DNA of 64,000 bases from Candidatus Pacearchaeota archaeon (lineage in GTDB: Archaea > Nanobdellota > Nanobdellia > Pacearchaeales > GW2011-AR1). The translations under genes were made by a program, and so were the position numbers. Each line of letters opens with the position of its first letter. The first letter of the stretch is position 1. The stretch spans positions 97,494 through 161,493 of the forward strand of contig JAGVWX010000020.1 in assembly GCA_018304105.1 (NCBI GenBank), written 5' to 3'. This document shows positions 5,212 to 54,661 of this stretch, one piece after another. The notes beneath the pieces are model-generated. The model worked only from the letters and a program-made list of their open reading frames with translations. It ran no database searches and was not told where the DNA came from.

Positions 5212-5819
5212 CGTGCTGAGTCCGCCTGTTTCTCAGCCTCATTCTTCTTTGACATTGCATAGCTTTCCATATTCTGGCTTGCTGCTTTCATTATTTCATC
5301 CGCTAATGAATCAACCATTTTCTTTTTCTTTCCAAAGCATCTGTTGTAAGCTCCCTGAACCATCCATCTTATCGCCAGGTCAACTCTCCTCATCGGCGAA
5401 GTGTCGACTGACTGCGGATATCTTGCGCCTCCGTGCTCAATGACAGTAATCTCGTCTCGTGGCGAGCCGTTCTCAATCGCCCTCACAAGAACCTGAATCG
5501 GATTTTCCCCGGTTTTTTTCTCAACTATCTTCATTATCTCAATCACCATGCTCATATTTTTGTTGTACTTTCCAGACGCCCAGCTTGTTATGATTCTGTG
5601 TTTCTTTCCAACATGCCCTGGAGTTGCAATCCTGTTGGCAAATCTTTCCATCAAGCCGACTCTCGCCTTTCCAAATCTGTTCAAGTTTCTGCCTTGCGAC
5701 TTCAGCAAAAGTCTCGGCTCAAGATTTATGTACGGCTTCAGCGCAGGATCTTTTATCTCGATGTTCGCAACATCAAACATGTCGAATAGTTTCATTTGCT
5801 GGGTTGTTTGTTCTACCAT
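5208..5819 (-). CDS. rps7: 30S ribosomal protein uS7
   Basis: 203 aa with typical archaeal S7 segments (GKKHRIITSWASGKY, ENGSPRDEITVIEHGGARY). Confidence 0.95.
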   Translation of the reverse strand: MVEQTTQQMKLFDMFDVANIEIKDPALKPYINLEPRLLLKSQGRNLNRFGKARVGLMERFANRIATPGHVGKKHRIITSWASGKYNKNMSMVIEIMKIVEKKTGENPIQVLVRAIENGSPRDEITVIEHGGARYPQSVDTSPMRRVDLAIRWMVQGAYNRCFGKKKKMVDSLADEIMKAASQNMESYAMSKKNEAEKQADSAR

Positions 5820-6124
5820 TATGCAACGACCTCCAATTCCTCATAACCTGCCGCTTTTCTCATAGCAATCGGTCCAAAATCTTCTTTTGAAACTAATTGT
5901 TTGTATCTTTGCATTGAAACTTTCGTCACAAAATCAGCAACATTCCTTCCATTTTCGGTTCTCTGATTATAAACCCCTATTACTCTTCCATAATCTACAA
6001 CATTGTCCTCGTGGGGAAACCAATCGCCATCATTTCCAATTCTAAGGACTCTCAGTTTATCTCCAACTCGCGGTATGCTGTCACCTTCAATATCAACAAA
6101 ACTCAAAAAAACACCGATGCTCAT
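5819..6124 (-). CDS. orphan 101-aa ORF inserted between uS12 and uS7
   Basis: Its start ATG overlaps the uS12 stop (ATGA at 6124-6121). Its stop overlaps the S7 start (TAATG at 5819). No family recognised. Confidence 0.5.
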   Translation of the reverse strand: MSIGVFLSFVDIEGDSIPRVGDKLRVLRIGNDGDWFPHEDNVVDYGRVIGVYNQRTENGRNVADFVTKVSMQRYKQLVSKEDFGPIAMRKAAGYEELEVVA

Positions 6125-6545
6125 CTTCTTCCCTTCTCAATCTTTCCTTTGACAAGTCTCTTCAAAGGCTGATCGTTTACTTTAATTACTCTTATCTCCC
6201 TTGGAACGTCCCTGCTTTCCGCCAATTCTTTCGATTATAACTTCATCGTGTTCATCCACAAACTTCTGCGCGAGATTTCCCGGAATGAACGCGCCAACTT
6301 GAATTCCATTTTTAACGAGCTGTACTTTGCAGCATTTCCTCATCGCGGAGTTTGGCTGCGCCGCCTCTTTCTGAAACTTTTCAATCACAATTCCCTTCGC
6401 CTGGCTAGAGCCTCCAAGCGGGTCCGATTTTATTTTGAGATTAAGCATTTTCGCATTATACATCTTATCGGCCCACCTAAACTGTTTTGGCCCACCTAAA
6501 CTGTTTTCTCTTCTTCGCTAATTTTCTAGCTCCCATCAATCCCAT
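6121..6545 (-). pseudogene. rps12: 30S ribosomal protein uS12 with two reading-frame disruptions
   Basis: Three collinear pieces. [18 protein letters not shown] runs from the ATG at 6545. [52 protein letters not shown]...[11 protein letters not shown] is track ORF 6182-6463. [24 protein letters not shown]-stop lies in the +1 frame and ends at 6121. Total length is 425 nt; removing the 19-nt duplication leaves 406 nt, which is 1 mod 3. Confidence 0.85.
6470..6507. repeat. perfect 19-bp tandem duplication (GGCCCACCTAAACTGTTTT x2) inside uS12
   Basis: Read directly. Copies are at 6470-6488 and 6489-6507. Removing one copy restores ...[24 protein letters not shown]. Confidence 0.95.
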
Positions 6546-6614
6546 GTTATATCCTTAAAGAAATTGGTTTTTAAACTTTCTGCTTTGGAATCAGGAAAAT
6601 CAAAAGAGATTTAA

Positions 6615-6827
6615 ATGATGCCGCCATTTAAAATAAGAGAAGCAGAAATGAGGAGCAGAACAAAAAATCTTATTTCATTGATATCAGGAATAATTTTCAT
6701 ACTTGTTGGATTGAGCGGTACAATTATTAATTTACCGGCATCCAAACCAATTATCATAATACCTATTGTATCCCTTGTTATTGGAGCAATCCTTGCTATT
6801 CTTGGCGGATTAGAGAAATGGCAATAA
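6615..6827 (+). CDS. small membrane protein (70 aa)
   Basis: Two hydrophobic helices. Lies on the opposite strand between uS12 and nusA. Confidence 0.45.
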   Translation: MMPPFKIREAEMRSRTKNLISLISGIIFILVGLSGTIINLPASKPIIIIPIVSLVIGAILAILGGLEKWQ

Positions 6828-7108
6828 ATAAGGATTTAGCCTTATTAAATTTAAAATATCAAGATTATTTAACTTATATCGGAGTAATCTGGACTGTTGC
6901 TATTTCCTTTTTTGTCGCAATTGTTTCTTATCTTTTGGTATCCATACCTAATTTATCTTTCTTAAGGATTACAATCGGATTGTTAATTTTAGTTTTTATC
7001 GAGATAGCGTTCATAGCCATTTACTTTTTCTTAAATACTGAAAAGAACCGCATCAAAGAAAAGATTAGCCATCTCTCCTCGGGAGTATATTGTCCTTCTT
7101 ATCCCTAA
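6818..7108 (+). CDS. small membrane protein (96 aa)
   Basis: Two or three hydrophobic helices. Overlaps the previous ORF by 10 nt. Confidence 0.45.
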   Translation: MAINKDLALLNLKYQDYLTYIGVIWTVAISFFVAIVSYLLVSIPNLSFLRITIGLLILVFIEIAFIAIYFFLNTEKNRIKEKISHLSSGVYCPSYP

Positions 7109-7521
7109 ATAATCTTCAAATCCAAATTATAAGTATCATGAATTATTTTCTTCAGTTCTAGAAATCTTCTTTTGTTTCTTCCAATCAAAGAAGCCTTGTT
7201 CTGATTGTTGCCTGCAGTTATTGTGACACAGCCGTCCCTTGCCTCAACAGCTTTCGGCCTGATAGGAGAAACAACATCTTCAATAAATCTCTTGATATCT
7301 TCAACACCCTCATCTTCCCGAATTATTCTAATCTTCTTCCCAATTTGTTCTTGAATTCTCCTTATATTCACCGCAGAAGGCCCGATTGCTTTCGAGACCT
7401 CTTCTCTGTTTACCGCAAAGAAAATAACCCCGTTGTGAACAAAACATTTTCTCGTCTTCACTCTGGATGTTCTGTCTAATAGGTTAATGTACCTCATTGC
7501 AGTCATGTCAATAACGCCCAT
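7105..7521 (-). CDS. nusA: archaeal NusA-like (KH-domain) transcription termination factor
   Basis: 138 aa with two KH-like segments (IGPSAVNIRRIQEQIGKKIRI, LIGRNKRRFLELKKI). Position downstream of rpoA is the conserved one. Confidence 0.9.
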   Translation of the reverse strand: MGVIDMTAMRYINLLDRTSRVKTRKCFVHNGVIFFAVNREEVSKAIGPSAVNIRRIQEQIGKKIRIIREDEGVEDIKRFIEDVVSPIRPKAVEARDGCVTITAGNNQNKASLIGRNKRRFLELKKIIHDTYNLDLKII

Positions 7522-7599
7522 TTTAATTTGTTAGAACCTTTATATCATTCCTTTTCTTGGCGAGTATATAAATTTATCGCAGACGCCGTTGTCTAGTAA

Positions 7600-10500
7600 T
7601 TATTTTTTCTTCTCGCTCTTCTGTTCTCTTGCCAAAGGCCCAGTGACCTTGACCAGCAATCCAGGCAATCCGGTTCCAACTGGAATCGGCTGGTTAAGCA
7701 AAATGTTTTCAATAACGGACTTAAGCTCGTCCTCTGCGCCCTTTATCGTCGCATTAACGAATTGCTTGTCCGGAGTTTCAAAAGTTGCCCTGGCAAGAAT
7801 GCTTGCCTTGTCAGTGATAATTCCCATTCTCGTTACTCCTTTAACCACTCCGGAAGAAGTCATTGCGTCAGCGACAAGCTGCAGATGCCTTTCATTAATG
7901 TCAAGCCCCTGAGTTTGGATAACATTTTTTATTTCATTGATTATGGTCAGCCTTGCCGCCTCAACTCCAAGCACATTTTTGACATCGTGAATATCGTTGG
8001 AAAATACTTTGTCTCTGTTAACTCCTTTTATTTCCAGGATTTCTTTCAAGTTAGAGCCGTTAGTCAAGATGACAAAGTCTCTGTCTCTTTTCGAAACTAT
8101 GACTTGCGGAACTCCTTTGACACCAGAAACTATCGTTTCTTTTAATTTTCCCTTCAGCTTGTACATTTCTTTGAAGCCAATTTCCGGAAGCGGAACAATT
8201 ATTTTATTTCCATTGATATTGACTTTAAACTTCTTGTCTATCAGCTTATCAGCAATTTTCTGGACGCCCGCATGCGTTCTTCTAACCGCTTCAGAATCTA
8301 ATTCTATCTCAATCTTTTTATTTCCAAAGTCAAGATTAATCTCAGACAAAACTTCTTCAAGCTTCACTTCTTTTATTTTTTCTGCCAAAATCCTTGCTTC
8401 CTTTTCATTGTTATGGTCTTTGTCAAGATAAATCTCCATCATCGGAGTTGAAGGTTGTTTTCTCGCGTCAAGAATTTCAATTAATCTCGGCAAACCCAGC
8501 GTAATCTGCATTTGCGCGACTCCAGCGTGGTGGAAAACGTTCAGGACCATCTGAGTTGAAGCCTCGCCAAAAGATTGTGCAGTTACAACGCCGACGGCCT
8601 CGCCAGGACAAATCTTGTCATCCTTCAGGTGAAGCTTGGCAACATCTTTTCCATCATATCCGTACACAAATTGAACAACATTTTCTGAAGCGTCTCTTAC
8701 AGTTCCATCGTATTCAACTTTCAAGTCCTGCAATGCGCTGACAAGTCGTCTGTACAAATAACCGGACTTAGGAGTTCTCAAAGCAGTATCCATCTGGCTG
8801 TCTCTTCCCGTTATCGCTCCAAAGAAAAATTCTGTTGGCTTGAGTCCTTTCAGGTAAGAAGATTTGATGAATCCTCTGGACTCTGAGCTAAGGTCACCTT
8901 TCTTGAAGAAAGATAATGTTCTGTCATTATATCCAAAACTAATTCTTCCATTCCATAAAACCTGCTGTCCGACGCAGCAGCCCATCTGTGTGATGTTCGT
9001 GATTCCGCCGCCGCTTCCGGATTTTATCATCATATTTATGTTTGCCTCCGGAGGCAGATTGACTTTAACAATATCTCCAACATCTGTTCTAACAGCGTTC
9101 AATATCTGCATAATCTTTGTTTCTCTTGTCTCTTCTGCGGTCTTCCCAGGCACAGCTTCCAAATTTCCAGAATTGTATTCTTCAATAACTTCCACCGTTC
9201 TTTTCTCTGCCTTCTCGATAATTTCTTTAGTAATCTCCTTAACTTTGTCCAGTACATCAATGTCGTGAAGTGAAAGAGTGTAGCCAACTCTGCTCAAATA
9301 CGAAGTTCCAAGCGTGAATGCCTTGTTGATTGTGTCTACCGCAACCTCTCTTCCCATCTCTCTATCAACTACTTTTACAAGCTCTCCATCTTCTGCACCA
9401 AACGTTTTGCTTCCGGTAATTATTGAAGGAACTGTAATTTTAGCTCCCTTCGGAATGACCTGCGCAAAAACTTCTGTTCCAGAAATTTCTTTCTTCTTAA
9501 TAGTATTCATCACGTTTGCAGAAAATAGCAGCTGATCTGCAAGACCCTTGTCCACAGTCGCTTTTCCAAGAAGATACGCGCCAGTAACAGCATCGGCAAT
9601 CGTTCCAACAAGGTTGGTATTATTTTTTGATGAGATTATATTCTTATTAATGTCCAACAAAATCTTTGCTTCAGAAAGCGCTTCTTCATTTTGCGGGCTG
9701 TGAATGTTCATTTCGTCTCCATCAAAGTCAGCGTTGTAAGGCGCAGCCGCGGCCGGATTTAGCCTGAAAGTCCTTCCAGGTAAAACTTTAACATAATGTG
9801 CCATCAAGCCCTGCTTGTGCAAGGTCGGGTGTCTGTTGAACAAGACAATATCGCCGTCTCTCAAATGTCTTTCAATTTTATATCCAGGCTGGATTTCGTT
9901 CATGATTTCTTCCTTCAGGTCTTCAGATAATCTCTTTCTTCTTCCGTCTGGTCTTATCACGTTATTCGCTCCAGGGTAATCAGTTCCCCTTTTAACAAGT
10001 TCCTTCATTTCTTCAAGATTTGTCGTCGTCACAGATTCCGCAACAGTGATGATTCTAGCAATCTGCTCAGGCACGCCAATTTCATTAATCTTCAAGTAAG
10101 GGTCTGGCGAAACAACCGACCTCGCAGAATAATTTACTCTCTTGCCAGCAAGATTATGCCTGATTCTTCCTTCTTTGCCTTTGATTCTTTCTGTTATTGT
10201 CTTCAATGGCTGTCCAGACCTGTGTCTCGCAGGGGGAATTCTTGTAACATTATTATCATAAAATGTGGTTATGTGATATTGCAGCAAGTCCCACAAATCT
10301 TCAATGATTACTTCTGGAGCTCCCGCGTTTAGGTTTTCCCACAATCTTTGATTAGCTCTGATTATGTCTGAAAGTTTGTGAGTCAAGTCGTCTTCGCTTC
10401 TTTCTCCGGTGTCAAGAGTAATCGACGGCCTGACAGTAACAGACGGCACAAGAAGCAAAGATATAACTGCTCTCTCCGGCCTCGCGGTCTTAGTGTTAAT

Positions 10501-11037
10501 CCCGATTTTCTTAAGTTCGTCATCAGAAATATTGACAAGTCTTTCTCTCACTTCAATCGGATTCAATCTTTTTTTGTCTATGAAAAAGTTTGTTGGTTTC
10601 TCAAGCTTTACTCTATCGATGTTCTCGTTGCAATGCGGGCATTTCTTCGCGTCTCTTGCTTTCTTCGCCCTTTCAGCAGGCGTCAGTCCTTTCTGCTTTT
10701 CATCTGACAGCGTCAACTTACCGCAATGAGGGCAGAAACTTCTCAAGCACAATTCCATCAAAGGAATATACTTGATATGCAAAACCGGTCTCGCAAGCTC
10801 GATGCTTCCGGGATGTCCGGGACATTCCTTAACTCTCTTCCCGCAAGTCCTGCATCTTACTCCCGGGTCAATCGCTCCAAGCCGCAAGTCCATAAGGCCT
10901 CCATCAACCGGGAAACCGTCAATGTCATAAAGTTCCGGAGTCACAACTTTCACCGCGCTAATTTTCTTAATCTGGTCCGGACTAAGCAAACTGAAACTCA
11001 GGCTTCTGACTTGTTTTCTCGAATATCTATTGCTCAT
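7600..11037 (-). CDS. rpoA: DNA-directed RNA polymerase subunit A, with A' and A'' encoded as one continuous ORF
   Basis: N-terminus has the zinc motifs RCRTCGKRVKECPGHPG, plus NADFDGDEMN. A''-type sequence (KICPGEAVGVVTAQSFGEASTQM...GLPRLIEILDARK...FETPDKQF) follows in frame with no stop or start around 8560-8700. The ATG at 11037 is preferred over the track TTG at 11043. Confidence 0.95.
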   Translation of the reverse strand: MSNRYSRKQVRSLSFSLLSPDQIKKISAVKVVTPELYDIDGFPVDGGLMDLRLGAIDPGVRCRTCGKRVKECPGHPGSIELARPVLHIKYIPLMELCLRSFCPHCGKLTLSDEKQKGLTPAERAKKARDAKKCPHCNENIDRVKLEKPTNFFIDKKRLNPIEVRERLVNISDDELKKIGINTKTARPERAVISLLLVPSVTVRPSITLDTGERSEDDLTHKLSDIIRANQRLWENLNAGAPEVIIEDLWDLLQYHITTFYDNNVTRIPPARHRSGQPLKTITERIKGKEGRIRHNLAGKRVNYSARSVVSPDPYLKINEIGVPEQIARIITVAESVTTTNLEEMKELVKRGTDYPGANNVIRPDGRRKRLSEDLKEEIMNEIQPGYKIERHLRDGDIVLFNRHPTLHKQGLMAHYVKVLPGRTFRLNPAAAAPYNADFDGDEMNIHSPQNEEALSEAKILLDINKNIISSKNNTNLVGTIADAVTGAYLLGKATVDKGLADQLLFSANVMNTIKKKEISGTEVFAQVIPKGAKITVPSIITGSKTFGAEDGELVKVVDREMGREVAVDTINKAFTLGTSYLSRVGYTLSLHDIDVLDKVKEITKEIIEKAEKRTVEVIEEYNSGNLEAVPGKTAEETRETKIMQILNAVRTDVGDIVKVNLPPEANINMMIKSGSGGGITNITQMGCCVGQQVLWNGRISFGYNDRTLSFFKKGDLSSESRGFIKSSYLKGLKPTEFFFGAITGRDSQMDTALRTPKSGYLYRRLVSALQDLKVEYDGTVRDASENVVQFVYGYDGKDVAKLHLKDDKICPGEAVGVVTAQSFGEASTQMVLNVFHHAGVAQMQITLGLPRLIEILDARKQPSTPMMEIYLDKDHNNEKEARILAEKIKEVKLEEVLSEINLDFGNKKIEIELDSEAVRRTHAGVQKIADKLIDKKFKVNINGNKIIVPLPEIGFKEMYKLKGKLKETIVSGVKGVPQVIVSKRDRDFVILTNGSNLKEILEIKGVNRDKVFSNDIHDVKNVLGVEAARLTIINEIKNVIQTQGLDINERHLQLVADAMTSSGVVKGVTRMGIITDKASILARATFETPDKQFVNATIKGAEDELKSVIENILLNQPIPVGTGLPGLLVKVTGPLAREQKSEKKK

Positions 11038-11314
11038 ATTCAAATCCTTCTGGGCTATCCAGAATATCGTCCCACTCTTCTACTATTGAACGAAATTCTC
11101 CAATTAATATTGGTTCATTTTTATAGAGAAGGCCAACTCTTCTAGCCAAGGCAAATTCGTCAGTATCACTATCAACAATTCCAACGCTGTTATTAATTGC
11201 TCTAACAGCAATATGTCTATCCCCGTAGCCTGCTTCTCTTAGCGCCTCTGCATTACCTAATACATATTTTCTTGCTCTTTCAAATTCCATCGCTTTTGTT
11301 CTATTGCTCATATT
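11026..11314 (-). repeat. 15-bp direct repeat pair (AATATGAGCAATAGA on the coding strand) at 11026-11040 and 11300-11314
   Basis: The same 15-mer forms both the rpoB-stop/ORF94-start junction and the ORF94-stop/rpoA-start junction. Period is 274 nt. Confidence 0.95.
11027..11311 (-). CDS. orphan 94-aa ORF inserted between rpoB and rpoA
   Basis: Start overlaps the rpoB stop and stop overlaps the rpoA start. Acidic C-terminus. No family recognised. Confidence 0.5.
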   Translation of the reverse strand: MSNRTKAMEFERARKYVLGNAEALREAGYGDRHIAVRAINNSVGIVDSDTDEFALARRVGLLYKNEPILIGEFRSIVEEWDDILDSPEGFEYEQ

Positions 11315-19557: not shown

Positions 19558-20403
19558 TTACTCGCCACAGCCTGAGCGAGTCGTCTGCTTGCAGCTCGTG
19601 CACATTATCGCGCAGTTTCCTACTCTCTTTGCAACTCCTCCGCAAATCGGGCAGGTGATTCCTTCATCGGCAGAAAATTCCTCAAGCGAAGATTGCTGTT
19701 CGTTCATATCAATTTCATGCACATCAGATAAATCCACTTGAATTCCTCCAGCCCCCTCGCCAAAATTATTCATCATGAACTGGGCAACGTAATCCACAAT
19801 CGAAGAGGCGGTCCTGATTTGTTTGATATTCTGGTCAATTTCTCCTCCGGCAAGGTTCTTCACAAATCCCGCTGGCTCAAACTTCTGGTGCCTGAATCTT
19901 TTGAACAAGTCATTTACTGTTGCGCCGTATTGCAAATTTACTGAAACAGAAGTCGCCCACGCATCAAACAATCCCCTCGTTGTAGAGCCTTGTTTGTGCA
20001 TCGTCACAAAAATTTCTCCGGGCTTTCCATCATCATAAAGCCCAACTGTAAGATAACCTTCATGTCCCGCAATCTCAAACTTGTGCGTAATAGATTTTCG
20101 CGTCTGCGGCAGTTTCACCCTCTCGCCAATTTTCACAGTCTCTTTTTTCTTTACAACCTCTCCTTCAGTCTTCTGCGTATTTAACGGCTGCGACCTCTTG
20201 CTGTTCTCCCGGTAAATTGCAACGGCTTTCAGTTTCTGTTCCCATGCATAAATATAAGCTTGCATAATTTCATCGGCATTAGACTCTTCTGGCATGTTTA
20301 TTGTCTTCGAAATCGCCCCCGAGATAAACGGTTGAACCGCCCCCATCATTTTAATATGCCCTTTATATTGTATTGCCCTTTTTCCCTTAGCCGCCTTGAA
20401 CAA
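19558..20403 (-). CDS. nrdJ: class II (B12-dependent) ribonucleotide reductase, C-terminal fragment
   Basis: GHIKMMGAVQPFISGAISKTINMP and a C-terminal Cys cluster CPICGG...CTSCK. It continues the upstream ORF after a frame change near 20400. Confidence 0.85.
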   Translation of the reverse strand: MFKAAKGKRAIQYKGHIKMMGAVQPFISGAISKTINMPEESNADEIMQAYIYAWEQKLKAVAIYRENSKRSQPLNTQKTEGEVVKKKETVKIGERVKLPQTRKSITHKFEIAGHEGYLTVGLYDDGKPGEIFVTMHKQGSTTRGLFDAWATSVSVNLQYGATVNDLFKRFRHQKFEPAGFVKNLAGGEIDQNIKQIRTASSIVDYVAQFMMNNFGEGAGGIQVDLSDVHEIDMNEQQSSLEEFSADEGITCPICGGVAKRVGNCAIMCTSCKQTTRSGCGE

Positions 20404-22424
20404 ATGTGCGGAGCGCCTTCAATAGTTTCATTCTTATCTATGTGCGCAATAATCTCTTCAATCTGCCCATTGTCATATCCAAGCTTTCTCAACCCTCTTC
20501 TCACGCTGTTGTTTACAATTTTCAGCATCCCGCCTCCAGCCAGAACTTTGTATTTAACAAGCGCAATATCTGGCTCGATTCCAGTAGTGTCACAATCCAT
20601 CATGAACGCAATCGTTCCTGTCGGTGCAAGAACCGTCGCCTGCGCATTTCTATAACCATACTTCTGTCCAAACTCAACTGCATCAGCCCAGGAATCCCAT
20701 GCGTCATTGACAAGATATCTCAACGAAGAAGGCATCACCTCGACATTAATCCCCTTTACAGATTCTTGGTGCATCCTCATGACTTCCATCATTGGTTCTT
20801 TGTTCTTCGCAAATCCTGGAAATGGTCCGACCAAACCTGCAAGCTCCGCCGAGGTTTTGTAAGCTTCTCCAGTCATTACCGCAGTTATTGCGGCAGCAAC
20901 GGCTCTTCCAGCATCAGAATCGTAAGGCAATCCTAAACTCATTAACAGCGCACCCAAGTTTGCGTAGCCCAAACCCAACGGCCTGTAATCGTGAGCGTTC
21001 TGCGTGATTTTTGCCGTCGGATAACTTCCTCCATCGACAATCAAGTCCATCGCAATGACAAATGTTTTAACAACTCTTCTAAACTTTTCAATATCAAACT
21101 TTCCATCTTCACCCAAAAATTTCATTAGATTAATTGACGCTAAGTTGCACGCAGAATCATCAAGAAACATATACTCGCTGCACGGATTGCTTGCGTTAAT
21201 CCTTCCAGAGTTCTTGCAAGTATGCCACCTATTTATTACCGAGTCAAATTGCATTCCAGGATCTCCGCATATATGAGTTCCTTCCGCAATTTTTTTCAAT
21301 ATCTGTTTGGCCTTGAAAGTTTCGCAAGCCATTCCATCCTTTACAAATTTAGTTGACCATTGCCCATCGGCTTTTACAGCTTGCATAAATTCATCTTGCG
21401 CCCTCACAGACATATTGCAATTCTGGAATGCAACGCTGGCATAGGCTGCGCCATTCATCCCGCCATCGTATCCTGCTTCGATAAGTGCCCAGGCTTTTTT
21501 TTCTTCAGTTGGCTTGGCGTCAATAAAGTCCATTACATCCGGATGGTCAACATTTAAGATTTCCATCTTTGCAGCTCTCCGTGTCTTTCCCCCAGACTTT
21601 ATGACTCCAGCATAAGCATCATATCCTTTCATGAAACTAACCGGCCCGGAAGCTCTTCCTCCGCCTGTTAAAGTTTCTCTCGAGCTTCTTAATGGGGAGC
21701 GATTCGTTCCGGTTCCGCTCCCAGCTTTGAACAGATTCGCCTCAGCAACTTGCACTTCCATGATTGAATCCATATCATCCTTAATGCTCTGGATGAAACA
21801 CGCAGAACATTGCGGCCTGTCGCTTTGTTTTATTGATTTTACAACGTTGTTGCTTGCACTATCCCAAACATAAATCGAAACCCCTCCGGCATTCTTGTCA
21901 TATTCTTGAATCCCTGCATTGAACCACACCGGAGAATTAAACACGGCCATCTGATTCAAACAAATAGCCGCAATCTCATCCTTCAAAACAACCGCTTCTT
22001 CTTCGTTGAAATATTTCTGCTTTACCGCCTGCCTTCCAAAAAATCTCGAAACCCTTCCAATAAGCATTTCAACGGAATTTTCTCTTTCATTTTTTTTCTG
22101 GTCTCCCCAAAAATATTTGCTCGCAACAACTTTTATTGCAAGCGGCGACCAAAAGTCCGGCCTTCTAACTCCTTCCTGGGTGAAAACAACTTTCCCGGAA
22201 TCATCATTAACTGAAACAACGTCTGAAACCCATCTAATCGGATTCCCATAAATATCAAACTCAAAAGGATTCTTTCCTTCCTGCGTCAAAAATCTAACTA
22301 ATGGCATTTTATATTTTGCAAAAGAAGAATTCATTCTTTGGTCAGTTGATTTAGGCTCATGGTTAAATCCGTTCTCCTGGCCATTCCATCCATTTCCGTT
22401 TATCTCAAATCCGTTTTCTTTCAT
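20346..22424 (-). CDS. nrdJ: class II (B12-dependent) ribonucleotide reductase, N-terminal 692-aa fragment
   Basis: Typical NrdJ blocks (NSPVWFNAG, CSACFI, ASNPCSEY, VLAPTGTIAFMMDCDTTGIEP). Ends ...TIEGAPH and then goes out of frame. Confidence 0.9.
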   Translation of the reverse strand: MKENGFEINGNGWNGQENGFNHEPKSTDQRMNSSFAKYKMPLVRFLTQEGKNPFEFDIYGNPIRWVSDVVSVNDDSGKVVFTQEGVRRPDFWSPLAIKVVASKYFWGDQKKNERENSVEMLIGRVSRFFGRQAVKQKYFNEEEAVVLKDEIAAICLNQMAVFNSPVWFNAGIQEYDKNAGGVSIYVWDSASNNVVKSIKQSDRPQCSACFIQSIKDDMDSIMEVQVAEANLFKAGSGTGTNRSPLRSSRETLTGGGRASGPVSFMKGYDAYAGVIKSGGKTRRAAKMEILNVDHPDVMDFIDAKPTEEKKAWALIEAGYDGGMNGAAYASVAFQNCNMSVRAQDEFMQAVKADGQWSTKFVKDGMACETFKAKQILKKIAEGTHICGDPGMQFDSVINRWHTCKNSGRINASNPCSEYMFLDDSACNLASINLMKFLGEDGKFDIEKFRRVVKTFVIAMDLIVDGGSYPTAKITQNAHDYRPLGLGYANLGALLMSLGLPYDSDAGRAVAAAITAVMTGEAYKTSAELAGLVGPFPGFAKNKEPMMEVMRMHQESVKGINVEVMPSSLRYLVNDAWDSWADAVEFGQKYGYRNAQATVLAPTGTIAFMMDCDTTGIEPDIALVKYKVLAGGGMLKIVNNSVRRGLRKLGYDNGQIEEIIAHIDKNETIEGAPHICSRRLREKGQYNIKGILK

Positions 22425-22425
22425 T

Positions 22426-22869
22426 TTATTTCTTTACCAATTCTTTTATTTCCTTGTTAAAATCTTCCAATTCCGCAAAATCCCTGTAAACTGATGCGAA
22501 CCGAATGTATGCAACCTTGTCAATTTTCTTAAGCTCGCTTGAAACAATATCCCCAATCAGGCTGGACTTAACTTCCCTTCCGCGTTTCCTTAATCTTTCT
22601 TCTGTTTTAGCGAGCATCTTTTCAATCTTTTCAGAGCTTACTGGCCTTTTTTCGCAAGCCTTAAGCACACCTCGTTTTAGTTTCTCGTAGTCAAAGTTTT
22701 CGCGCCGACCATCTTTTTTTATCACCCGAAAATCGGGCCTATCAACAGCCTCCAGAGTGTTAAATCTTCTCGAACACTTCAGGCATTCGCGCCTTCTTTT
22801 CGTCAAACTTTCATTATCCCTTTTATCTATAACCTTCGTTTCATCGCTTAGACAGTAGGGACAGAGCAT
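22426..22869 (-). CDS. nrdR: transcriptional repressor NrdR (zinc ribbon + ATP-cone)
   Basis: MLCPYCLSDETKVIDKR...RRRECLKCSRRFNTLE followed by an ATP-cone. The ATG at 22869 is preferred over the track GTG at 22881. The stop abuts the nrdJ start. Confidence 0.9.
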   Translation of the reverse strand: MLCPYCLSDETKVIDKRDNESLTKRRRECLKCSRRFNTLEAVDRPDFRVIKKDGRRENFDYEKLKRGVLKACEKRPVSSEKIEKMLAKTEERLRKRGREVKSSLIGDIVSSELKKIDKVAYIRFASVYRDFAELEDFNKEIKELVKK

Positions 22870-22877
22870 GTTAGTAA

Positions 22878-22893
22878 ACACAATATCTTGTGT
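22878..22893 (-). promoter_or_regulatory. NrdR box 1 (ACACAATATCTTGTGT)
   Basis: 16-bp palindrome matching the bacterial NrdR-box pattern acaC-AT-rich-Gtgt, 9 nt upstream of the nrdR ATG. Confidence 0.7.
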
Positions 22894-22908
22894 TTTTCTC
22901 TTTTTTTA

Positions 22909-22924
22909 TCACAATCTATTGTGC
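22909..22924 (-). promoter_or_regulatory. NrdR box 2 (TCACAATCTATTGTGC)
   Basis: Second palindrome, 31 bp centre to centre from box 1. An A/T-rich TATA-like run (22901-22908) lies between the boxes. Confidence 0.65.
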
Positions 22925-23083
22925 AATTCTAAGTTTTAGCTTTAAACGTATTTAAACATTTCCGTGCTATTTTTTTTATCGTCGCTAAAAATCAAGAAGC
23001 AAGGAGTCTTACTTTTCCAGTAGCAAATCGCAAGTTCTTGTTAATCTTTAGATTAATAATAACGATTAATAAAAAGTAGTTGC

Positions 23084-24716: not shown

Positions 24717-24768
24717 TTTCCCTCAAACTATTGAAGATATTTAAATACTTTCAAGATATTTAACAACA

Positions 24769-41983: not shown

Positions 41984-44443
41984 TTACTCAACAAAAATCC
42001 CAGGCCGTCCAGGTTTGACCTTGGCAGATTTATTCTGCGGGTCATACTTCTTCGCATCGTTAACCGCAAACACGAAAACCTCCCTGCTCACGCGCCGTGA
42101 AATCTCAGAAGCAGAATAAAATTTAACTTCATGAGGCAAAACATAAACATACACGCGCTCACCATTAACAATTCGTAATATATTCAAAACATCTGCAACA
42201 GTCTTTTCAACAGCCTGCTCTTCTTTCTCAAACTCTTCATTTATCTTCTTCTCGTCAACTTTCGGCCAAGACTCCAACGAAATAAATCCATTATTTCCCA
42301 GCTTAGACCAAAGTTCTTCTGTCAAAAACGGGCAATAGATATGCAGCAGTTTCAAAAAGCTCTCCGCTGTTTTTTTGTCAATTTCTTTTCCTGAAAAATA
42401 ATCAAACAACTCTCTCAGCTTAATCACCGCAAGATTATGCTTGAAATTTTCAACATATTCTGTGACTTCTTTTATCGTCTTATTCAGTTTGCTTTCTACT
42501 CTCGCATCCGCTTTTCCAAATTTCACATTATCAAAATAATCATAAATCCTGCTCAGAAATTTATTGCTTCCAAGAACAATCTTCTCATCCCACGAGCTGT
42601 CCTTATCCGGACTTGCCAAGCTGACAAGCGCCAGCCTTAGTGTATCTGCCCCAGATTTCTCTATAGTTTCAAAAGGCTCAACGATATTTCCTCTCGACTT
42701 GCTCATCTTCTCTCCATCTGCTCCATGAACAATTCCTTGCGTGAAATACCTCAACGCAGGCTCATCAAACTTCAAAAGTCCAAGGTCTCGCAAAAACTTT
42801 GTGTAAAACCGAATGTAAATCAAATGCATCGTGATGTGCTCCGGCCCGCCAATATACTGGTCAATCGGCGCCCAATAATTTGCTTTCTTCTCATCAAAAA
42901 TTTTCTTATCATTTTTTGGGTCCGTATATCTAAGATAATACCACGATGAATTTGCAAAAGTATCCATCGTGTCAGTTTCCCTTCTCGCCTTTTCTCCGCA
43001 CTTCGGACATTTCGCGTCAATAAATTTTTTATTAGTTGTAAGAGGATTTCCTTCGCCAAATTTTACATCTTTGGGCAATTCAACTGGCAGCTCTTTTTCA
43101 GGCACAGGAACAATTCCGCACTTCTCGCAATAAACAATTGGAATCGGAGTTCCCCAATATCTCTGTCTCGAAATCAGCCAATCTCTAAGCTTATAGTTGA
43201 AAGTTTTCTTCCCTAGCTTCTTCTTTTCCATCCACGTCGTAATTTCTTCAATCGCTTCTCTGCTGTTTGAATAATCAAACTCTCCAGAGTTAATCAACTC
43301 ACCTTCTTCGGTAAAAGCGCGAGACATTTTCTCAGCATTCAATTCATATTCAAACGGTTTCACTACAACTCTTATTGGAATTTTGTACTTTTTAGCGAAC
43401 TCAAAATCTCTCTGGTCATGCGCAGGCACAGCCATAACCATCCCGCATCCATAATCAGCGACGACAAAATTTCCTGTATAGACCGGAACTTTCTCTCCAT
43501 TCACAGGATTTATTGCATAGCTTCCCGTGAAAGCGCCTTCCTTCTCCAGATTCTCAATATCTTTCTCGCTTGTCGATTTAACTTTCTTCAAGAAAGCATC
43601 AACTTCTTTCTTCTGCTTTTCAGTCACTAGCTCAATAAGTTTAGGATGCTGCGCAGACACAACCATGAAAGTCACACCAAAAATTGTATCCGGACGAGTT
43701 GTGAAGATTGACCACTTTTTTCCGTTTATATCAAAATCAATCTCCGTCCCGTAGCTCTTGCCAATCCAGTTCAGCTGTCTTTTCTTCGCGTTCTCAGGCC
43801 AATCAAGTTTCTCCAGACCATTAATCAGCTCTTCCGCATAATCTGTTATCTTGAGAAACCATTGTTCAAGATGTTTTATTTCTACGTTAGTATCCTCATG
43901 TCTCCAGCATTTTCCGTCCACAACTTGCTCGTTCGCCAGAACAGTATTGCACTTTCTGCACCAATTCACAGGCGCTTTTTTTCTGTAAGCAAGTCCTTTT
44001 TTTAACATCTGAAGAAAAATCCATTGGTCCCATCTATAAAATTCCGAATCGCTCGTCTTTACCATTCTGCTCCAGTCATAACTCCATCCCATCGCCCTTT
44101 GTTGTCTCATAAAGTTAGCAATTGACTTCTTTGTGTATTCCTCTGGGTGCGTTCCTGCTTTTATCGCCGCATTCTCCGCAGGCAGTCCTAAAGAATCATA
44201 TCCTATCGGATACAAAACATTGTACCCTTGCATTCTCTTGAACCTTGCAAAAATATCTCCCAGGGAAAATACAAAAGCATGACCGATATGCAATCCTTCG
44301 CCAGAAGGATAAGGAAACATATCAAGAACATAAAACTTTTTCTTCCCTTTTTCTTCCTTGATCTCGAAAATCTTTTCTTTCTCCCATTTGTCCTGCCATT
44401 TTTTTCCTATTTTAGAAAAATCAGTTCTTACCATGCTAAACAA
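41984..44443 (-). CDS. leuS: leucyl-tRNA synthetase, bacterial-type sequence
   Basis: 819 aa with DMFPYPSGEGLHIGHA, PIGYDSLGLPAENAA, VNWCRKCNTVLANEQV and KMSKS. Confidence 0.97.
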   Translation of the reverse strand: MFSMVRTDFSKIGKKWQDKWEKEKIFEIKEEKGKKKFYVLDMFPYPSGEGLHIGHAFVFSLGDIFARFKRMQGYNVLYPIGYDSLGLPAENAAIKAGTHPEEYTKKSIANFMRQQRAMGWSYDWSRMVKTSDSEFYRWDQWIFLQMLKKGLAYRKKAPVNWCRKCNTVLANEQVVDGKCWRHEDTNVEIKHLEQWFLKITDYAEELINGLEKLDWPENAKKRQLNWIGKSYGTEIDFDINGKKWSIFTTRPDTIFGVTFMVVSAQHPKLIELVTEKQKKEVDAFLKKVKSTSEKDIENLEKEGAFTGSYAINPVNGEKVPVYTGNFVVADYGCGMVMAVPAHDQRDFEFAKKYKIPIRVVVKPFEYELNAEKMSRAFTEEGELINSGEFDYSNSREAIEEITTWMEKKKLGKKTFNYKLRDWLISRQRYWGTPIPIVYCEKCGIVPVPEKELPVELPKDVKFGEGNPLTTNKKFIDAKCPKCGEKARRETDTMDTFANSSWYYLRYTDPKNDKKIFDEKKANYWAPIDQYIGGPEHITMHLIYIRFYTKFLRDLGLLKFDEPALRYFTQGIVHGADGEKMSKSRGNIVEPFETIEKSGADTLRLALVSLASPDKDSSWDEKIVLGSNKFLSRIYDYFDNVKFGKADARVESKLNKTIKEVTEYVENFKHNLAVIKLRELFDYFSGKEIDKKTAESFLKLLHIYCPFLTEELWSKLGNNGFISLESWPKVDEKKINEEFEKEEQAVEKTVADVLNILRIVNGERVYVYVLPHEVKFYSASEISRRVSREVFVFAVNDAKKYDPQNKSAKVKPGRPGIFVE

Positions 44444-50332: not shown

Positions 50333-51196
50333 CTAGTTCTCCTTAACATTATCTCGTTCCATCAAAATGTCAAACGGATTCTTGACTTTCTTTAGCTGAT
50401 CGCTCGATACATGCGTGTAAACCTGCGTTGTGCTCAACGACGAATGTCCCAGCATTGCCTGAATAACCCTAATGTCAATTCCCTGCTCAAGCAGGTGCGT
50501 CGCAAAACTGTGCCTCAATGTGTGCGGAGTTGTCTTCTTGGTTATCCCAGACCTCCCGCTCGCACCCTTAATAATCTTCTGAATATTTCTCGTCGTTAAA
50601 GGTTTGTTTTTAGAAAATACAAATTCATTTTCTTTTCCTTTGCTTTCAAAATATTCTTTCAACTCTTTTGACAAACTTTCTGACATCATAAAAAGTCTGT
50701 CCTTGCTTCCTTTTCCTCGTCGAACCCATCCGGTCTTGTCCTCGAGATTCAAATCAGACATTTTTAGGTTCACAAGTTCAGAAACTCTCAGCCCGGTCGA
50801 ATAAAGCAGCGAAACAATCAGCCTCGACTTTACAGTATCCGTTGACTCAATTAAATCCCTTACCTCATTTTTAGTCAGAACCTCCGGAAGTTTCTTGTCT
50901 TTTTTTGGCAGCGGCACGCCCACAAAATCTTTTTTCAAAACTTCTTTATAGAAAAATTTCAGCGCAGCCGCAGCAAGCATAATCGTGTTCTTCGATTTCG
51001 AATCGAACATATCAGATAAGTACATTTTGACATCATCTTCGTTCAATTCTCCAGGAGATTTTTTAGACTGATTCAGAAATTTCTCTACGAAAAACGTATA
51101 GTTCCGAACAGTCAGCGGCGAAAACCCGCGAATTTTCAACTCAGCTTTTAGCTTGTTAACGACCCCCATTAACACCTCATTTGACTCCAGCCTCAT
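50333..51196 (-). CDS. xerA: tyrosine recombinase, XerA/XerCD-like
   Basis: 287 aa with an N-terminal SAM-like domain and a catalytic region ...GLRVSEL...HTLRHSFATHLLEQGIDIRVIQAMLGHSSLSTTQVYTHV. Confidence 0.9.
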   Translation of the reverse strand: MRLESNEVLMGVVNKLKAELKIRGFSPLTVRNYTFFVEKFLNQSKKSPGELNEDDVKMYLSDMFDSKSKNTIMLAAAALKFFYKEVLKKDFVGVPLPKKDKKLPEVLTKNEVRDLIESTDTVKSRLIVSLLYSTGLRVSELVNLKMSDLNLEDKTGWVRRGKGSKDRLFMMSESLSKELKEYFESKGKENEFVFSKNKPLTTRNIQKIIKGASGRSGITKKTTPHTLRHSFATHLLEQGIDIRVIQAMLGHSSLSTTQVYTHVSSDQLKKVKNPFDILMERDNVKEN

Positions 51197-51232
51197 TAAA
51201 ACGAACCTCTATTTAAAAGTTATTGCTCTGGC

Positions 51233-51430
51233 ATGTATACAAATCCTTATATATCTATTTCAATACAACCGATTATGGCAGACAGTGAAAAGCTAAGGCT
51301 GGCGGTCATTGCTGGCGCATCTCATGCGCTGAAATACCGAGAGGAAAATCCAAGAGCAGACGACAGAGAAGCCCTGAAGTTCGTCACGGAAAAAATAAAC
51401 GCAATTCTAAATGAAATCGAAGAAGATTAA
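51233..51430 (+). CDS. hypothetical small protein (65 aa, or 51 aa from the ATG at 51275)
   Basis: ORF only. Confidence 0.35.
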   Translation: MYTNPYISISIQPIMADSEKLRLAVIAGASHALKYREENPRADDREALKFVTEKINAILNEIEED

Positions 51431-51526
51431 CCATGTCCTAGCTCAATTCCCTCGCTCATTAATCTTTTTCCTAAAGCGTCGTATAGAAATCTTCTCGCAT
51501 CAAATTCATAATAATTAGGTTTGAAA

Positions 51527-51657
51527 TGCGGGGAGTAGGATTCGAACCTACGAAGGCACTAAGCACACAAGATTTCTCGCGAAATCCTATCTTAACTCTT
51601 CCTCGCGGAAAAGCGACGTCTTAAGTCTTGCCCGTTTGACCACTCCGGAATCCCCGC
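51527..51657 (-). tRNA. tRNA-Leu (anticodon UAA) with an intron of about 46 nt at the canonical 37/38 position
   Basis: Exon 1 (51657-51620) ends CAAGA-CTTAAG. Exon 2 (51573-51527) is A-TCTTG + 16-nt variable arm + GTAGG-TTCGAAT-CCTAC + TCCCCGC-A. The intron is roughly 51619-51574. Confidence 0.85.
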
Positions 51658-51707
51658 ATGATGAAGAGATTCTGGAGAATCGTTAGATTCATCCGGAATC
51701 CCCGCAT
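51644..51707 (-). repeat. 16-nt direct repeat of the tRNA-Leu(UAA) 5' end (ATGCGGGGATTCCGGA)
   Basis: TCCGGAATCCCCGCAT occurs at 51644-51659 and 51692-51707 (period 48). Confidence 0.9.
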
Positions 51708-51751
51708 TACATTCTCGAAAGAAGTTACTATTTTAAAGGTTACTAATCTCT

Positions 51752-51775
51752 TACATTGTAAAGTTAGCGGTTGGT
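51752..51775 (+). repeat. left terminal inverted repeat
   Basis: See the mobile element entry. Confidence 0.9.
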
Positions 51776-51847
51776 GAAGCAGATTACAAAAATATTTAAA
51801 CGCAGGTCTCATAGTTTTATCATGGTTACGGCACAGGGAGATTTCTG

Positions 51848-51960
51848 CTAACTTTAACATCCTAAATTAAGTTAGTTCTAATCTTTCTGTGCTGATTTCC
51901 AAACCACCAAAACCTTTAAATATATAATATATATCTATTTCTCAAGGATGTTAAAGTTAG
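51848..51960. repeat. internal 15-bp perfect inverted repeat (CTAACTTTAACATCC / GGATGTTAAAGTTAG) with an 83-bp spacer
   Basis: Read directly. The spacer contains TCTAATCTTTCTG, which resembles the target duplication, and an (AT)n run. Confidence 0.8.
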
Positions 51961-52055
51961 AATAGCAACTACAAATTTGTTGTTGCTTGTAGCTTGACAA
52001 TCTTATGTTTGCCAAAGAGGTGAACATTAAACTAAATTGCAGGAGGAAAAAATAA

Positions 52056-52997: not shown

Positions 52998-53189
52998 TGG
53001 GTTTTTGTCTGGGTAGTAATCCCAAAGCTGAATCCATAATTTATTGAGGTATTTTTTTACTTTAATTTTTTCTTTCTTTTTTATTTCATTATTTTTAAAC
53101 TTTCTTTCCAATTCTGCATCCGCTAAGTCTAAAGCAAAAACTCTTTTTTTCCATTCAAAATATCTATCATCGTCTTTTCTTATTTCCAT
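52959..53189 (-). CDS. hypothetical small protein (76 aa) downstream of the RHH gene
   Basis: The ATG at 53189 (MEIRKDDDRYFEW...) overlaps the RHH ORF 3' end by 23 nt. Confidence 0.4.
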   Translation of the reverse strand: MEIRKDDDRYFEWKKRVFALDLADAELERKFKNNEIKKKEKIKVKKYLNKLWIQLWDYYPDKNPLIEEAFKLNFGY

Positions 53190-53343
53190 TTTCAATTAAT
53201 TTAAGTTTATTAGAAAATAGCCAAGCATGGACTATTTCTTGTAATAACTTAGATTTATTCATAACATATTTCTCCAATGCTTTATTGAACAAGTCAAAAT
53301 CTTCTTGCTTTAATGTAAATTTTATTTGTCGGTCTGATGGCAT
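53167..53343 (-). CDS. ribbon-helix-helix (CopG-like) protein, 58 aa
   Basis: My own translation (below the track length cut-off): MPSDRQIKFTLKQEDFDLFNKALEKYVMNKSKLLQEIVHAWLFSNKL... This fits a beta-strand plus two-helix pattern. Confidence 0.5.
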   Translation of the reverse strand: MPSDRQIKFTLKQEDFDLFNKALEKYVMNKSKLLQEIVHAWLFSNKLKLIENGNKKRR

Positions 53344-53446
53344 TATTTAAAGTAGCTACATTAATATATAAAAGTATCTACCTTTAAAATTAAAAGTAAC
53401 TACGCAGTATAGAAAGATTTATATACTACATATATCTATTATATAC

Positions 53447-53614: not shown

Positions 53615-53671
53615 TCATATTAAATTAGAGGGGAGCCGAAGCTCCCCATATCCACCTAACGCTTAAATCAG

Positions 53672-54625: not shown

Positions 54626-54661
54626 AAATGGCAGTTATGTTTAATATTTTGGAGATTGAAA

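What the first reader, a model, noticed from the sequence alone, without database searches (positions are those of the whole stretch)
22426..22924. Bacterial-type NrdR regulon on an archaeal promoter: two NrdR boxes 31 bp apart
nrdR (zinc ribbon plus ATP-cone) is directly coupled to the class II RNR. Upstream are two palindromes, ACACAATATCTTGTGT (22878-22893) and TCACAATCTATTGTGC (22909-22924). Their centres are 31 bp apart, which is the spacing and consensus known for bacterial NrdR operators. An A/T run suitable as a TATA box lies between them, and box 1 ends 9 nt from the ATG. So the operator appears to overlap a leaderless archaeal promoter. This is a clear case of a bacterial repressor-operator system apparently working on archaeal basal machinery.
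Basis: partly seen in the sequence, partly recalled or inferred. Interest (0 to 1): 0.6.

Follow-up and report, generated by a model that had tools for sequence, protein, structure and literature searches.

The report
NrdR operator in DPANN archaeal promoter

Summary
Two NrdR boxes lie at 22878-22893 and 22909-22924, separated by a 15-bp linker. They sit upstream of nrdR (22426-22869, minus strand), whose stop codon is 1 nt from the start of class II RNR nrdJ. The host is a DPANN archaeon (Pacearchaeota/Nanoarchaeota).

A profile built only from distant relatives finds this site as the single significant hit in 64 kb (E=5e-9). The box pair recurs upstream of nrdR in 28 of the 31 related archaeal species retrieved.

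The promoter model is not supported. A conserved BRE/TATA (GGAAATG-TTTAAATA, 22949-22963) lies upstream of both boxes, always 24-26 nt (once 28) before the distal box. The linker shows no conserved TATA. In this genome TATA boxes sit exactly 21 nt before the ATG of leaderless genes. That predicts the nrdR transcription start at about 22927, with the boxes at about +4..+19 and +35..+50 and a leader of about 58 nt.

Most likely mechanism (inferred, not shown): dATP/ATP-loaded NrdR binds the initially transcribed region and blocks RNA polymerase loading, which auto-represses nrdRJ.

NrdR in archaea is already reported, and bacterial-like regulators on archaeal promoters are the norm. I rate this a new member of a known kind, of modest interest.

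The parts
22957..22963 (-). Putative BRE (GGAAATG on the minus strand), immediately upstream of the TATA box
   Evidence: Read. GAAAT[G/C] precedes TTTAAATA in nearly all DPANN nrdR promoters. Its function is inferred.
22949..22956 (-). TATA box TTTAAATA of the nrdRJ promoter
   Evidence: One search finds the exact motif. The same motif class lies 21 nt before the ATG of 9 other ORFs in the window. It is conserved 24-26 nt upstream of the distal box in 28 of 29 promoters, and 28 nt in the other.
22927..22927 (-). Predicted transcription start (A), uncertain by about 3 nt (22924-22928)
   Evidence: Inference: the TATA 3' end plus 22 nt, calibrated on the 21-nt TATA-to-ATG gap of the window's leaderless genes. 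It has not been mapped.
22909..22924 (-). Distal NrdR box (box 1 in the direction of transcription), GCACAATAGATTGTGA, predicted at +4..+19
   Evidence: It matches 5 of 6 conserved positions. The distal box has a non-T at position 9 in 25 of 29 DPANN sites.
22894..22908 (-). 15-bp A-rich linker, TAAAAAAAGAGAAAA
   Evidence: Linker length is 15 bp in 21, 16 bp in 7 and 14 bp in 1 of 29 promoters. The sequence is variable, with 63% A on the sense strand.
22878..22893 (-). Proximal NrdR box (box 2), ACACAAGATATTGTGT, predicted at +35..+50
   Evidence: It matches 6 of 6 conserved positions.
22426..22869 (-). nrdR coding sequence (147 aa, stop included). The true start is the ATG at 22869, not the GTG at 22881
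   Evidence: Pfam Zn_ribbon_NrdR plus ATP-cone. It is 100% identical to NCBI 'transcriptional regulator NrdR [Candidatus Pacearchaeota archaeon]'. PDB NrdR matches at E=1e-38 (E. coli) and 5e-27 (S. coelicolor), with D15, R17 and the four Cys conserved.
19558..22424 (-). nrdJ (class II, B12-dependent RNR), here broken into two ORFs (20346-22424 and 19558-20403) by a 31-nt deletion between 20402 and 20401
   Evidence: Pfam Ribonuc_red_lgC, Ribonuc_red_2_N and TSCPD. An otherwise 100% identical contig, L081, has an intact 965-aa gene. The gene is in a single frame in relatives.

Best explanation
This is the autoregulated nrdR-nrdJ operon of a DPANN (Pacearchaeota-type) archaeon, controlled by a canonical NrdR operator. 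The operator is two 16-bp NrdR boxes with a 15-bp linker. It lies immediately downstream of a near-consensus archaeal BRE/TATA promoter. The boxes are predicted at about +4..+19 and +35..+50 relative to a transcription start at about 22927, inside a leader of about 58 nt. By analogy with S. coelicolor and E. coli NrdR, when dATP rises relative to ATP the protein should form a tetramer that binds both boxes and bends the DNA. At this position it would leave TBP/TFB free to bind BRE/TATA but would occupy the DNA that archaeal RNA polymerase must load (about -10 to +20). That would block polymerase recruitment or open-complex formation and shut down synthesis of both the RNR and NrdR itself. High ATP would drive non-binding oligomers and derepress the operon.

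Shown here: the boxes, their spacing, the gene identities, the archaeal host, conservation of the boxes and of the TATA-to-box distance, and conservation of the DNA-contact residues.

Inferred: the transcription start position, binding by NrdR, the nucleotide dependence and the step of initiation that is blocked.
For: Boxes and spacing. Match to the experimentally defined positions C4/A6/A8/T9/T11/G13 and to the 15-16-bp linker: PMC13584703; a middle AG is tolerated. NrdR domains. D15, R17, the basic patch and the 2xCxxC motifs align with S. coelicolor 7p37 and E. coli 9fvr (roles of D15/R17 from PMC9110341). nrdJ lies directly downstream here and in at least 27 related loci. Specificity: a profile from distant relatives gives one hit in the window (E=5.1e-9), and across 31 archaeal loci every significant hit lies just upstream of nrdR. 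Conservation: C4, T11 and G13 are present in 29 of 29 sites in both boxes, and box identity is 0.77 against 0.44 for the TATA-to-box spacer. Geometry: the TATA-to-distal-box gap is 24, 25 or 26 nt in 12, 9 and 7 promoters (28 nt in one), whereas the box 2-to-ATG gap ranges from 6 to 25 nt. The constraint is therefore relative to the promoter, not the start codon. TSS calibration: a 21-nt TATA-to-ATG gap in 9 window genes. Archaeal identity of the contig. GC content is even across the locus.
Against: No transcription start, binding or expression data exist for any archaeal NrdR. The TSS is extrapolated from leaderless neighbours. The distal box deviates at position 9, so the published regex for box pairs misses this site. 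There is no Shine-Dalgarno sequence between box 2 and the ATG in this window, so how the leadered mRNA is translated is open. In this particular assembly nrdJ carries a 31-nt frameshifting deletion. Three of 31 relatives (L015, L028, L030) lack a clear pair or the standard geometry.
Confidence: 0.8

Rival explanations
1. One reading: the A/T run in the linker is the TATA box, transcription starts at or near the ATG (leaderless), and NrdR flanks the TATA box and competes with TBP/TFB.
For: The linker is A-rich in the window and in many relatives. In the closest bacterial (CPR) relatives a promoter element (TTGACA, the -35 box) does sit inside the linker, so this would mirror the bacterial layout.
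Against: TAAAAAAA matches the genome's TTTAWATA motif at only 5 of 8 positions. Several relatives have no TATA-like linker. The distance from the linker to the ATG varies by about 19 nt among relatives (box 2-to-ATG 6-25 nt), which is incompatible with a fixed 21-nt TATA-to-ATG leaderless geometry. A much better and conserved BRE/TATA exists upstream at fixed spacing.
Confidence: 0.07
2. The palindromes act mainly at the RNA level: as hairpins in the transcribed leader that affect mRNA stability, termination or translation, not as a protein operator.
For: If the TSS is at about 22927, both palindromes are transcribed. The leader folds at -13.2 kcal/mol, z=-2.35. Box 2 ends only 8 nt from the ATG.
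Against: The sequence itself is conserved, not merely the pairing, and it equals the DNA consensus bound by NrdR in bacteria. Spacing is constrained relative to TATA, not to the ATG. The 15-16-bp linker equals the three-helical-turn requirement of the NrdR tetramer. Any pair of similar palindromes will fold, so the z-score is uninformative. No Rfam family matches.
Confidence: 0.04
3. Relic operator: the boxes came with a horizontally acquired bacterial nrdRJ cassette and persist without function on the archaeal promoter.
For: A crude NJ tree places the main DPANN NrdR clade next to CPR/Patescibacteria sequences, which is compatible with interdomain transfer.
Against: The boxes are retained in 28 species whose NrdR has diverged to about 53-65% identity, while adjacent spacer DNA has diverged to 44% identity. 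The promoter-operator geometry differs from that of the bacterial relatives and is tightly fixed, which implies selection after acquisition.
Confidence: 0.03

Closest known systems
Streptomyces coelicolor nrdRJ operon and its NrdR operator (Borovok/Grinberg; Rozman Grinberg et al. 2022, PMC9110341; PDB 7P3F)
   Same: Same gene order: nrdR first, class II nrdJ second, so the operon is autoregulated. Two 16-bp partially palindromic boxes with a 15-bp linker. The operator lies at the transcription start region. The protein has a Zn-ribbon plus an ATP-cone, with D15 and R17 conserved.
   Different: The host basal machinery is archaeal (BRE/TATA, TBP/TFB, Rpb1/2-type RNAP). Both boxes lie downstream of the core promoter element instead of overlapping the -35/-10 boxes. 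The protein is only distantly related (E=5e-27) and lacks the C-terminal extension (147 vs 195 aa). The boxes are AT-rich (ACACAAnAnnTTGTGT).
E. coli NrdR and the nrdAB/nrdHIEF/nrdDG operators (PMC12176259, PMC13584703; PDB 9FVR)
   Same: This is the best structural match (E=1e-38). The box consensus and linker length are the same. A middle AG in one box occurs naturally in E. coli nrdAB box 2, and altered middle dinucleotides leave binding affinity largely unchanged.
   Different: In E. coli, nrdR is not in an RNR operon and controls three operons. Here only one operator is seen in the 64 kb examined.
NrdR boxes in the nearest bacterial relatives retrieved (Candidatus Daviesbacteria and other CPR loci L033, L035, L038)
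   Same: NrdR is 50-53% identical. A box of the same type lies upstream of nrdR.
   Different: In these bacteria a TTGACA (-35) lies inside the linker, so the boxes flank or overlap the sigma-70 promoter (three loci only). In the archaeal clade the promoter element lies wholly upstream of both boxes.
Archaeal repressors that bind at or just downstream of the TATA box and block RNAP recruitment (for example MDR1, LrpA, Phr, NrpR, TrmB family; from general knowledge and PMC4158304)
   Same: The operator is placed over the transcription start, downstream of BRE/TATA. The regulator is bacterial-like and acts on eukaryote-like basal machinery.
   Different: These are different protein folds (wHTH/Lrp/TrmB versus Zn-ribbon plus ATP-cone). 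NrdR needs two boxes three helical turns apart and senses dATP/ATP.
Haloarchaeal nrdR-nrdA/B operons (Lundin et al. 2010, PMC3019208)
   Same: nrdR is the first gene of an RNR operon in an archaeon, attributed to transfer from bacteria.
   Different: Those are class I RNRs in Halobacteria. No operator or promoter analysis appears in the passages I read. The lineage is different.

Membership tests
NrdR repressor protein | N-terminal Zn-ribbon with two CxxC motifs | tested here: met
   PF22811 E=2.5e-14, residues 1-40. C3, C6, C29 and C32 align with the cysteines of E. coli and S. coelicolor NrdR.
NrdR repressor protein | ATP-cone domain following the Zn-ribbon | tested here: met
   PF03477 E=2.1e-22, residues 48-132, covering 2-86 of 88 profile positions.
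NrdR repressor protein | Base-specific DNA-contact residues (S. coelicolor D15 and R17) and the basic backbone-contact patch | tested here: met
   D15 and R17 are identical. R12 is K12. R26-29 correspond to K24-R25-R26-R27. R37 corresponds to R35 (alignment; residue roles from PMC9110341).
NrdR repressor protein | dATP/ATP-dependent switch between a DNA-binding tetramer and non-binding higher oligomers | not testable with these tools
   This needs purified protein (MST/EMSA, SEC, cryo-EM).
NrdR operator (NrdR-box pair) | Two 16-bp partially palindromic boxes with conserved C4, A6, A8, T9, T11 and G13 | tested here: met
   The proximal box matches 6 of 6 and the distal box 5 of 6 (G at position 9). 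A middle AG or AA is tolerated in binding assays.
NrdR operator (NrdR-box pair) | Linker of 15-16 bp (about three helical turns between box centres) | tested here: met
   The linker is 15 bp in the window. In 28 of 29 DPANN promoters it is 15 or 16 bp.
NrdR operator (NrdR-box pair) | Located in the promoter region of an RNR operon, overlapping the RNA polymerase binding site or transcription start | tested here: inconclusive
   Its position upstream of nrdRJ is shown. Overlap with the transcription start is inferred from TATA position and leaderless-gene calibration. The TSS has not been mapped.
NrdR operator (NrdR-box pair) | Conserved upstream of nrd genes in related genomes | tested here: met
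   28 of 31 DPANN loci keep it. All significant profile hits lie only upstream of nrdR.
NrdR operator (NrdR-box pair) | Bound by the cognate NrdR | not testable with these tools
   This requires EMSA or MST.
Archaeal BRE/TATA promoter | TATA box (TTTAWATA) preceded by a purine-rich BRE, about 22-27 nt upstream of the start site | tested here: met
   GGAAATG-TTTAAATA lies at 22949-22963. The same TATA class lies 21 nt before the ATG of 9 window ORFs. The start site itself has not been mapped.
   The linker is not TATA-like in several relatives, and the distance from linker to ATG varies by about 19 nt.

The most novel reading that the evidence does not exclude
In DPANN archaea the NrdR operator may have been re-positioned after acquisition from bacteria. 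In bacteria it flanks or overlaps the -35/-10 boxes. In DPANN it occupies a rigidly phased slot 24-26 bp downstream of the TATA box, has an A-tract linker, and has a systematically asymmetric distal box (non-T at position 9). This could reflect a mechanism specific to the archaeal pre-initiation complex. For example, NrdR might trap or clash with TFB/RNAP at a defined rotational setting rather than simply occluding DNA. If so, this clade would be a natural model for how a bacterial repressor is re-engineered to control a eukaryote-like initiation complex.
Probability: 0.15. Interest if true: 0.5.

Novelty: new member of a known kind. Interest (0 to 1): 0.3.

Why it matters
This gives the sequence-level anatomy of an NrdR-controlled promoter in archaea. 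NrdR is reported there from gene presence only ('some archaea', '22% of archaeal genomes'), and one recent preprint still calls it absent. The published surveys of NrdR boxes whose methods I read covered bacterial genomes only.

The fixed TATA-to-box distance gives a concrete and testable prediction of where and how NrdR interferes with archaeal initiation. It also shows that the published box regex misses these sites because of the AG/AA middle of the distal box.

It is not a new principle. Bacterial-like repressors sitting over the start site of archaeal promoters are well known.

Tried and rejected
(1) The published regex for NrdR-box pairs (C.[AT].A[AT].[AT].G with a 20-23-nt spacer, PMC12051234). 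In this AT-rich window it gave 4 unrelated chance pairs, about what Markov simulations give (mean 3.5). It missed the real site because of G at position 9 in the distal box. I replaced it with a profile built from relatives.

(2) Loose consensus scans with mismatches are not significant by count alone. Only the exact core and the paired arrangement are informative.

(3) Rfam gave no riboswitch or leader family in the region.

(4) Folding the leader as RNA gave a structure that follows trivially from two similar palindromes. I did not pursue it.

(5) The NJ tree of NrdR covers 147 aa, has no support values and uses a sample biased by how the loci were retrieved. I use it only as a hint of a link to CPR bacteria, not as evidence for a transfer event.

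(6) I did not run an NrdJ homologue search or phylogeny. The top hits would all be DPANN, so it would not resolve the origin.

(7) Methanobrevibacter (L034) shows no boxes within 300 nt upstream of nrdR. Methanosarcinales (L032) has a pair with a different TATA distance, about 14-16 nt. I did not follow these up.

(8) I could not scan the rest of this genome for further box pairs. Only the 64-kb window and 8-kb loci were available.

Full report
**Observation**

The + strand carries ACACAATATCTTGTGT at 22878-22893 and TCACAATCTATTGTGC at 22909-22924. The two are separated by 15 bp, so their centres are 31 bp apart.

Both lie upstream of a minus-strand ORF. Its biologically sensible start is the ATG at 22869 (MLCPYC...), not the GTG at 22881 that the mechanical ORF list reports. 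This 147-aa protein has the NrdR Zn-ribbon (PF22811, E=2.5e-14) and an ATP-cone (PF03477, E=2.1e-22). Its stop codon is 1 nt from the ATG of a class II ribonucleotide reductase, which carries Ribonuc_red_lgC, Ribonuc_red_2_N and TSCPD domains.

The experimentally defined NrdR box has six conserved positions (C4, A6, A8, T9, T11, G13), and the two boxes are 15-16 bp apart (PMC13584703). Read in the direction of transcription:
- The promoter-proximal box ACACAAGATATTGTGT matches 6 of 6 positions.
- The distal box GCACAATAGATTGTGA matches 5 of 6. Its AG middle also occurs naturally in E. coli nrdAB box 2 and is tolerated in binding assays.

**Is it more than chance?**

Loose scans are not significant by count: 5 matches against 2.9 expected, and 3 against 2.2 expected. 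The published box-pair regex gives only chance pairs in this AT-rich window and misses the true site.

The exact core CACAANNNNTTGTG, however, occurs only at these two places. An nhmmer profile built solely from the sites of 21 relatives (NrdR at most 72% identical, window excluded) gives a single significant hit in 64 kb: 22923-22879 on the minus strand, E=5.1e-9.

**Host**

The contig is archaeal. The evidence is:
- Rpb1- and Rpb2-type RNA polymerase subunits, EF-2, a thermosome, DUF655, and an S13-S4-S11-RpoD cluster.
- An intron-containing tRNA.
- The identical NrdR is named 'Candidatus Pacearchaeota archaeon' by NCBI and occurs on 46 contigs.
- GC content is even across the locus, and the nrdRJ genes sit among these archaeal core genes. 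Contamination or mis-binning is therefore unlikely.

**Conservation**

A scan of GTDB species representatives returned 31 DPANN loci (Pacearchaeota, Woesearchaeota, Nanoarchaeota; 53-87% identity). It also returned two other archaea and many bacteria at 53% identity or less.
- nrdJ follows nrdR in at least 27 of the DPANN loci.
- In 28 of the 31, a box pair lies just upstream of nrdR.
- Across 29 promoters (the window plus these 28), C4, T11 and G13 are present in 29 of 29 in both boxes. A6 is present in 29 and 28.
- The linker is 15 bp in 21 promoters, 16 bp in 7 and 14 bp in 1.
- Across about 230 kb of these loci, every significant profile hit lies immediately upstream of nrdR.
- Mean pairwise identity of the boxes is 0.77, against 0.44 for the adjacent spacer.

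**Promoter anatomy**

The alignment of upstream regions shows a near-invariant GAAAT[G/C]TTTAAATA upstream of both boxes. In the window it is GGAAATG-TTTAAATA at 22949-22963 on the minus strand.

The gap from the 3' end of this TATA box to the distal box is 24, 25 or 26 nt in 12, 9 and 7 promoters, and 28 nt in one. The intervening sequence is not conserved. The gap from the proximal box to the ATG ranges from 6 to 25 nt. Selection therefore fixes the operator relative to the promoter, not relative to the start codon.

Several relatives have no TATA-like linker.

Within the window, TTTAWAWA-type motifs sit exactly 21 nt before the ATG of 9 ORFs, and 22 nt before the start codon of 2 more. This is the signature of leaderless genes whose transcription starts about 22 nt after the TATA box. 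Applying that calibration to nrdR gives:
- a transcription start at about 22927;
- the distal box at about +4..+19;
- the proximal box at about +35..+50;
- a leader of about 58 nt.

So nrdR is a leadered exception in a largely leaderless genome. The extra leader is essentially the operator.

**Mechanism**

What is shown: the NrdR here keeps the residues that read the bases in the S. coelicolor complex (D15, R17), the basic backbone-contact patch, and the four zinc-binding cysteines (roles from PMC9110341).

What is inferred: in bacteria, dATP/ATP-loaded NrdR forms a tetramer that binds two boxes about three helical turns apart and bends the DNA sharply, while ATP-loaded NrdR forms non-binding oligomers. 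I infer the same switch here.

At +4..+50 the tetramer would not cover BRE/TATA. It would occupy the DNA that archaeal RNA polymerase must engage. The likely blocked step is therefore polymerase recruitment or open-complex formation after TBP/TFB binding. This is the usual mode of archaeal repressors (general knowledge; PMC4158304).

Because nrdR is the first gene of the operon, the circuit is negatively autoregulated, as in the S. coelicolor nrdRJ operon.

**Comparison with bacteria**

In the closest bacterial relatives retrieved (CPR: Daviesbacteria L033 and L035, plus L038), a TTGACA -35 element lies inside the linker, so the boxes flank the sigma-70 promoter. This rests on three loci only.

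The archaeal clade instead places the whole operator downstream of the core promoter element.

A crude NJ tree puts the main DPANN clade beside CPR sequences. That hints at interdomain transfer, but the tree is short, has no support values and comes from a biased sample.

**What is already known**

Presence of NrdR in archaea is already in the literature:
- haloarchaeal nrdR-nrdA/B operons (PMC3019208);
- 'most bacteria and some archaea' (PMC9110341);
- '22% of archaeal genomes' (PMC13584703).

One 2025 preprint still states that NrdR is absent from archaea.

Two of the published NrdR-box surveys (PMC12051234, PMC13584703) state that they searched bacterial genomes only. The earlier profile search (PMC9110341) covered GTDB species-representative genomes. 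My searches found no paper combining NrdR with DPANN taxa or with TATA/TFB terms.

The operator-promoter anatomy in archaea therefore appears undescribed, but it is an expected instance of a known system. My verdict is a new member of a known kind, of modest interest.

**Caveat on this assembly**

nrdJ is split into two ORFs here. The cause is 31 nt missing between window positions 20402 and 20401, relative to contig L081. L081 is otherwise 100% identical over 8.4 kb and encodes an intact 965-aa NrdJ. This looks like an assembly or population variant, not programmed frameshifting.

Noticed in passing
window 20401-20402 (nrdJ, minus strand): nrdJ is split into two overlapping ORFs (20346-22424 and 19558-20403). 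The cause is 31 nt (CTGAAGAGCACCTGCCAGTTTTTGACTGCGC in L081 6469-6499) missing from the window. The window is otherwise 100% identical to ENA contig L081 over 8.4 kb, and L081 and L082 encode an intact 965-aa NrdJ. No flanking direct repeat is evident.
   Followed up: yes
L006 5765-6873 and L019 5607-6712: Two related Woesearchaeota/Nanoarchaeota loci carry an in-frame insertion of about 1.1 kb in nrdJ, at the position of residue ~415 of the window protein. This is probably an intein.
   Followed up: no
window 24738-24747: A palindromic TATTTAAATA acts as a shared bidirectional TATA box. It lies exactly 21 nt before the ATG of the PD-(D/E)XK/Cas4-like gene (24716, minus strand) and 21 nt before the ATG at 24769 (plus strand). 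Overall, 9 ORFs in the window have a TATA motif exactly 21 nt before the ATG, so the genome is largely leaderless.
   Followed up: partly
window 22894-22908 and the equivalent linkers in L001-L031: The linker between the two NrdR boxes is strongly A-rich on the sense strand (278 A, 73 T, 72 G and 18 C over 29 promoters), and often contains AAAGAGG. Bacterial linkers are described as unconserved. The cause could be A-tract bending or leader composition; it is unexplained.
   Followed up: partly
distal NrdR box, position 9 (window 22916) and the equivalent in relatives: There is a systematic asymmetry between the boxes. The distal box has T9 in only 4 of 29 promoters (A in 14, G in 10), whereas the proximal box has T9 in 23 of 29.
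   Followed up: partly
window 50333-55990: A tyrosine recombinase (50333-51196) lies next to a 131-nt intron-containing tRNA (51527-51657), which Rfam found but ARAGORN did not. It is followed by a low-GC (0.31) stretch with a DDE transposase (53672-54625) and a DNA methylase (54656-55990). This may be an integrated mobile element.
   Followed up: no
window 7600-11043: A single 1147-aa ORF covers Rpb1 domains 1-5. No separate A'' ORF of 150 aa or more lies downstream (5819-7600). The large RNAP subunit therefore appears unsplit, unlike the usual archaeal A'/A'' pair.
   Followed up: no
window 41984-44443: The leucyl-tRNA synthetase (819 aa) carries the tRNA-synt_1_2 editing-domain architecture (PF13603). 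I recall this as typical of bacterial-type LeuRS, so it may be another gene of bacterial origin. I did not verify this.
   Followed up: no
L032 (Methanosarcinales) and L034 (Methanobrevibacter), upstream of nrdR: L032 has a box pair only about 14-16 nt after a TTTATATA motif, a different geometry from DPANN. L034 shows no boxes within 300 nt of nrdR.
   Followed up: no
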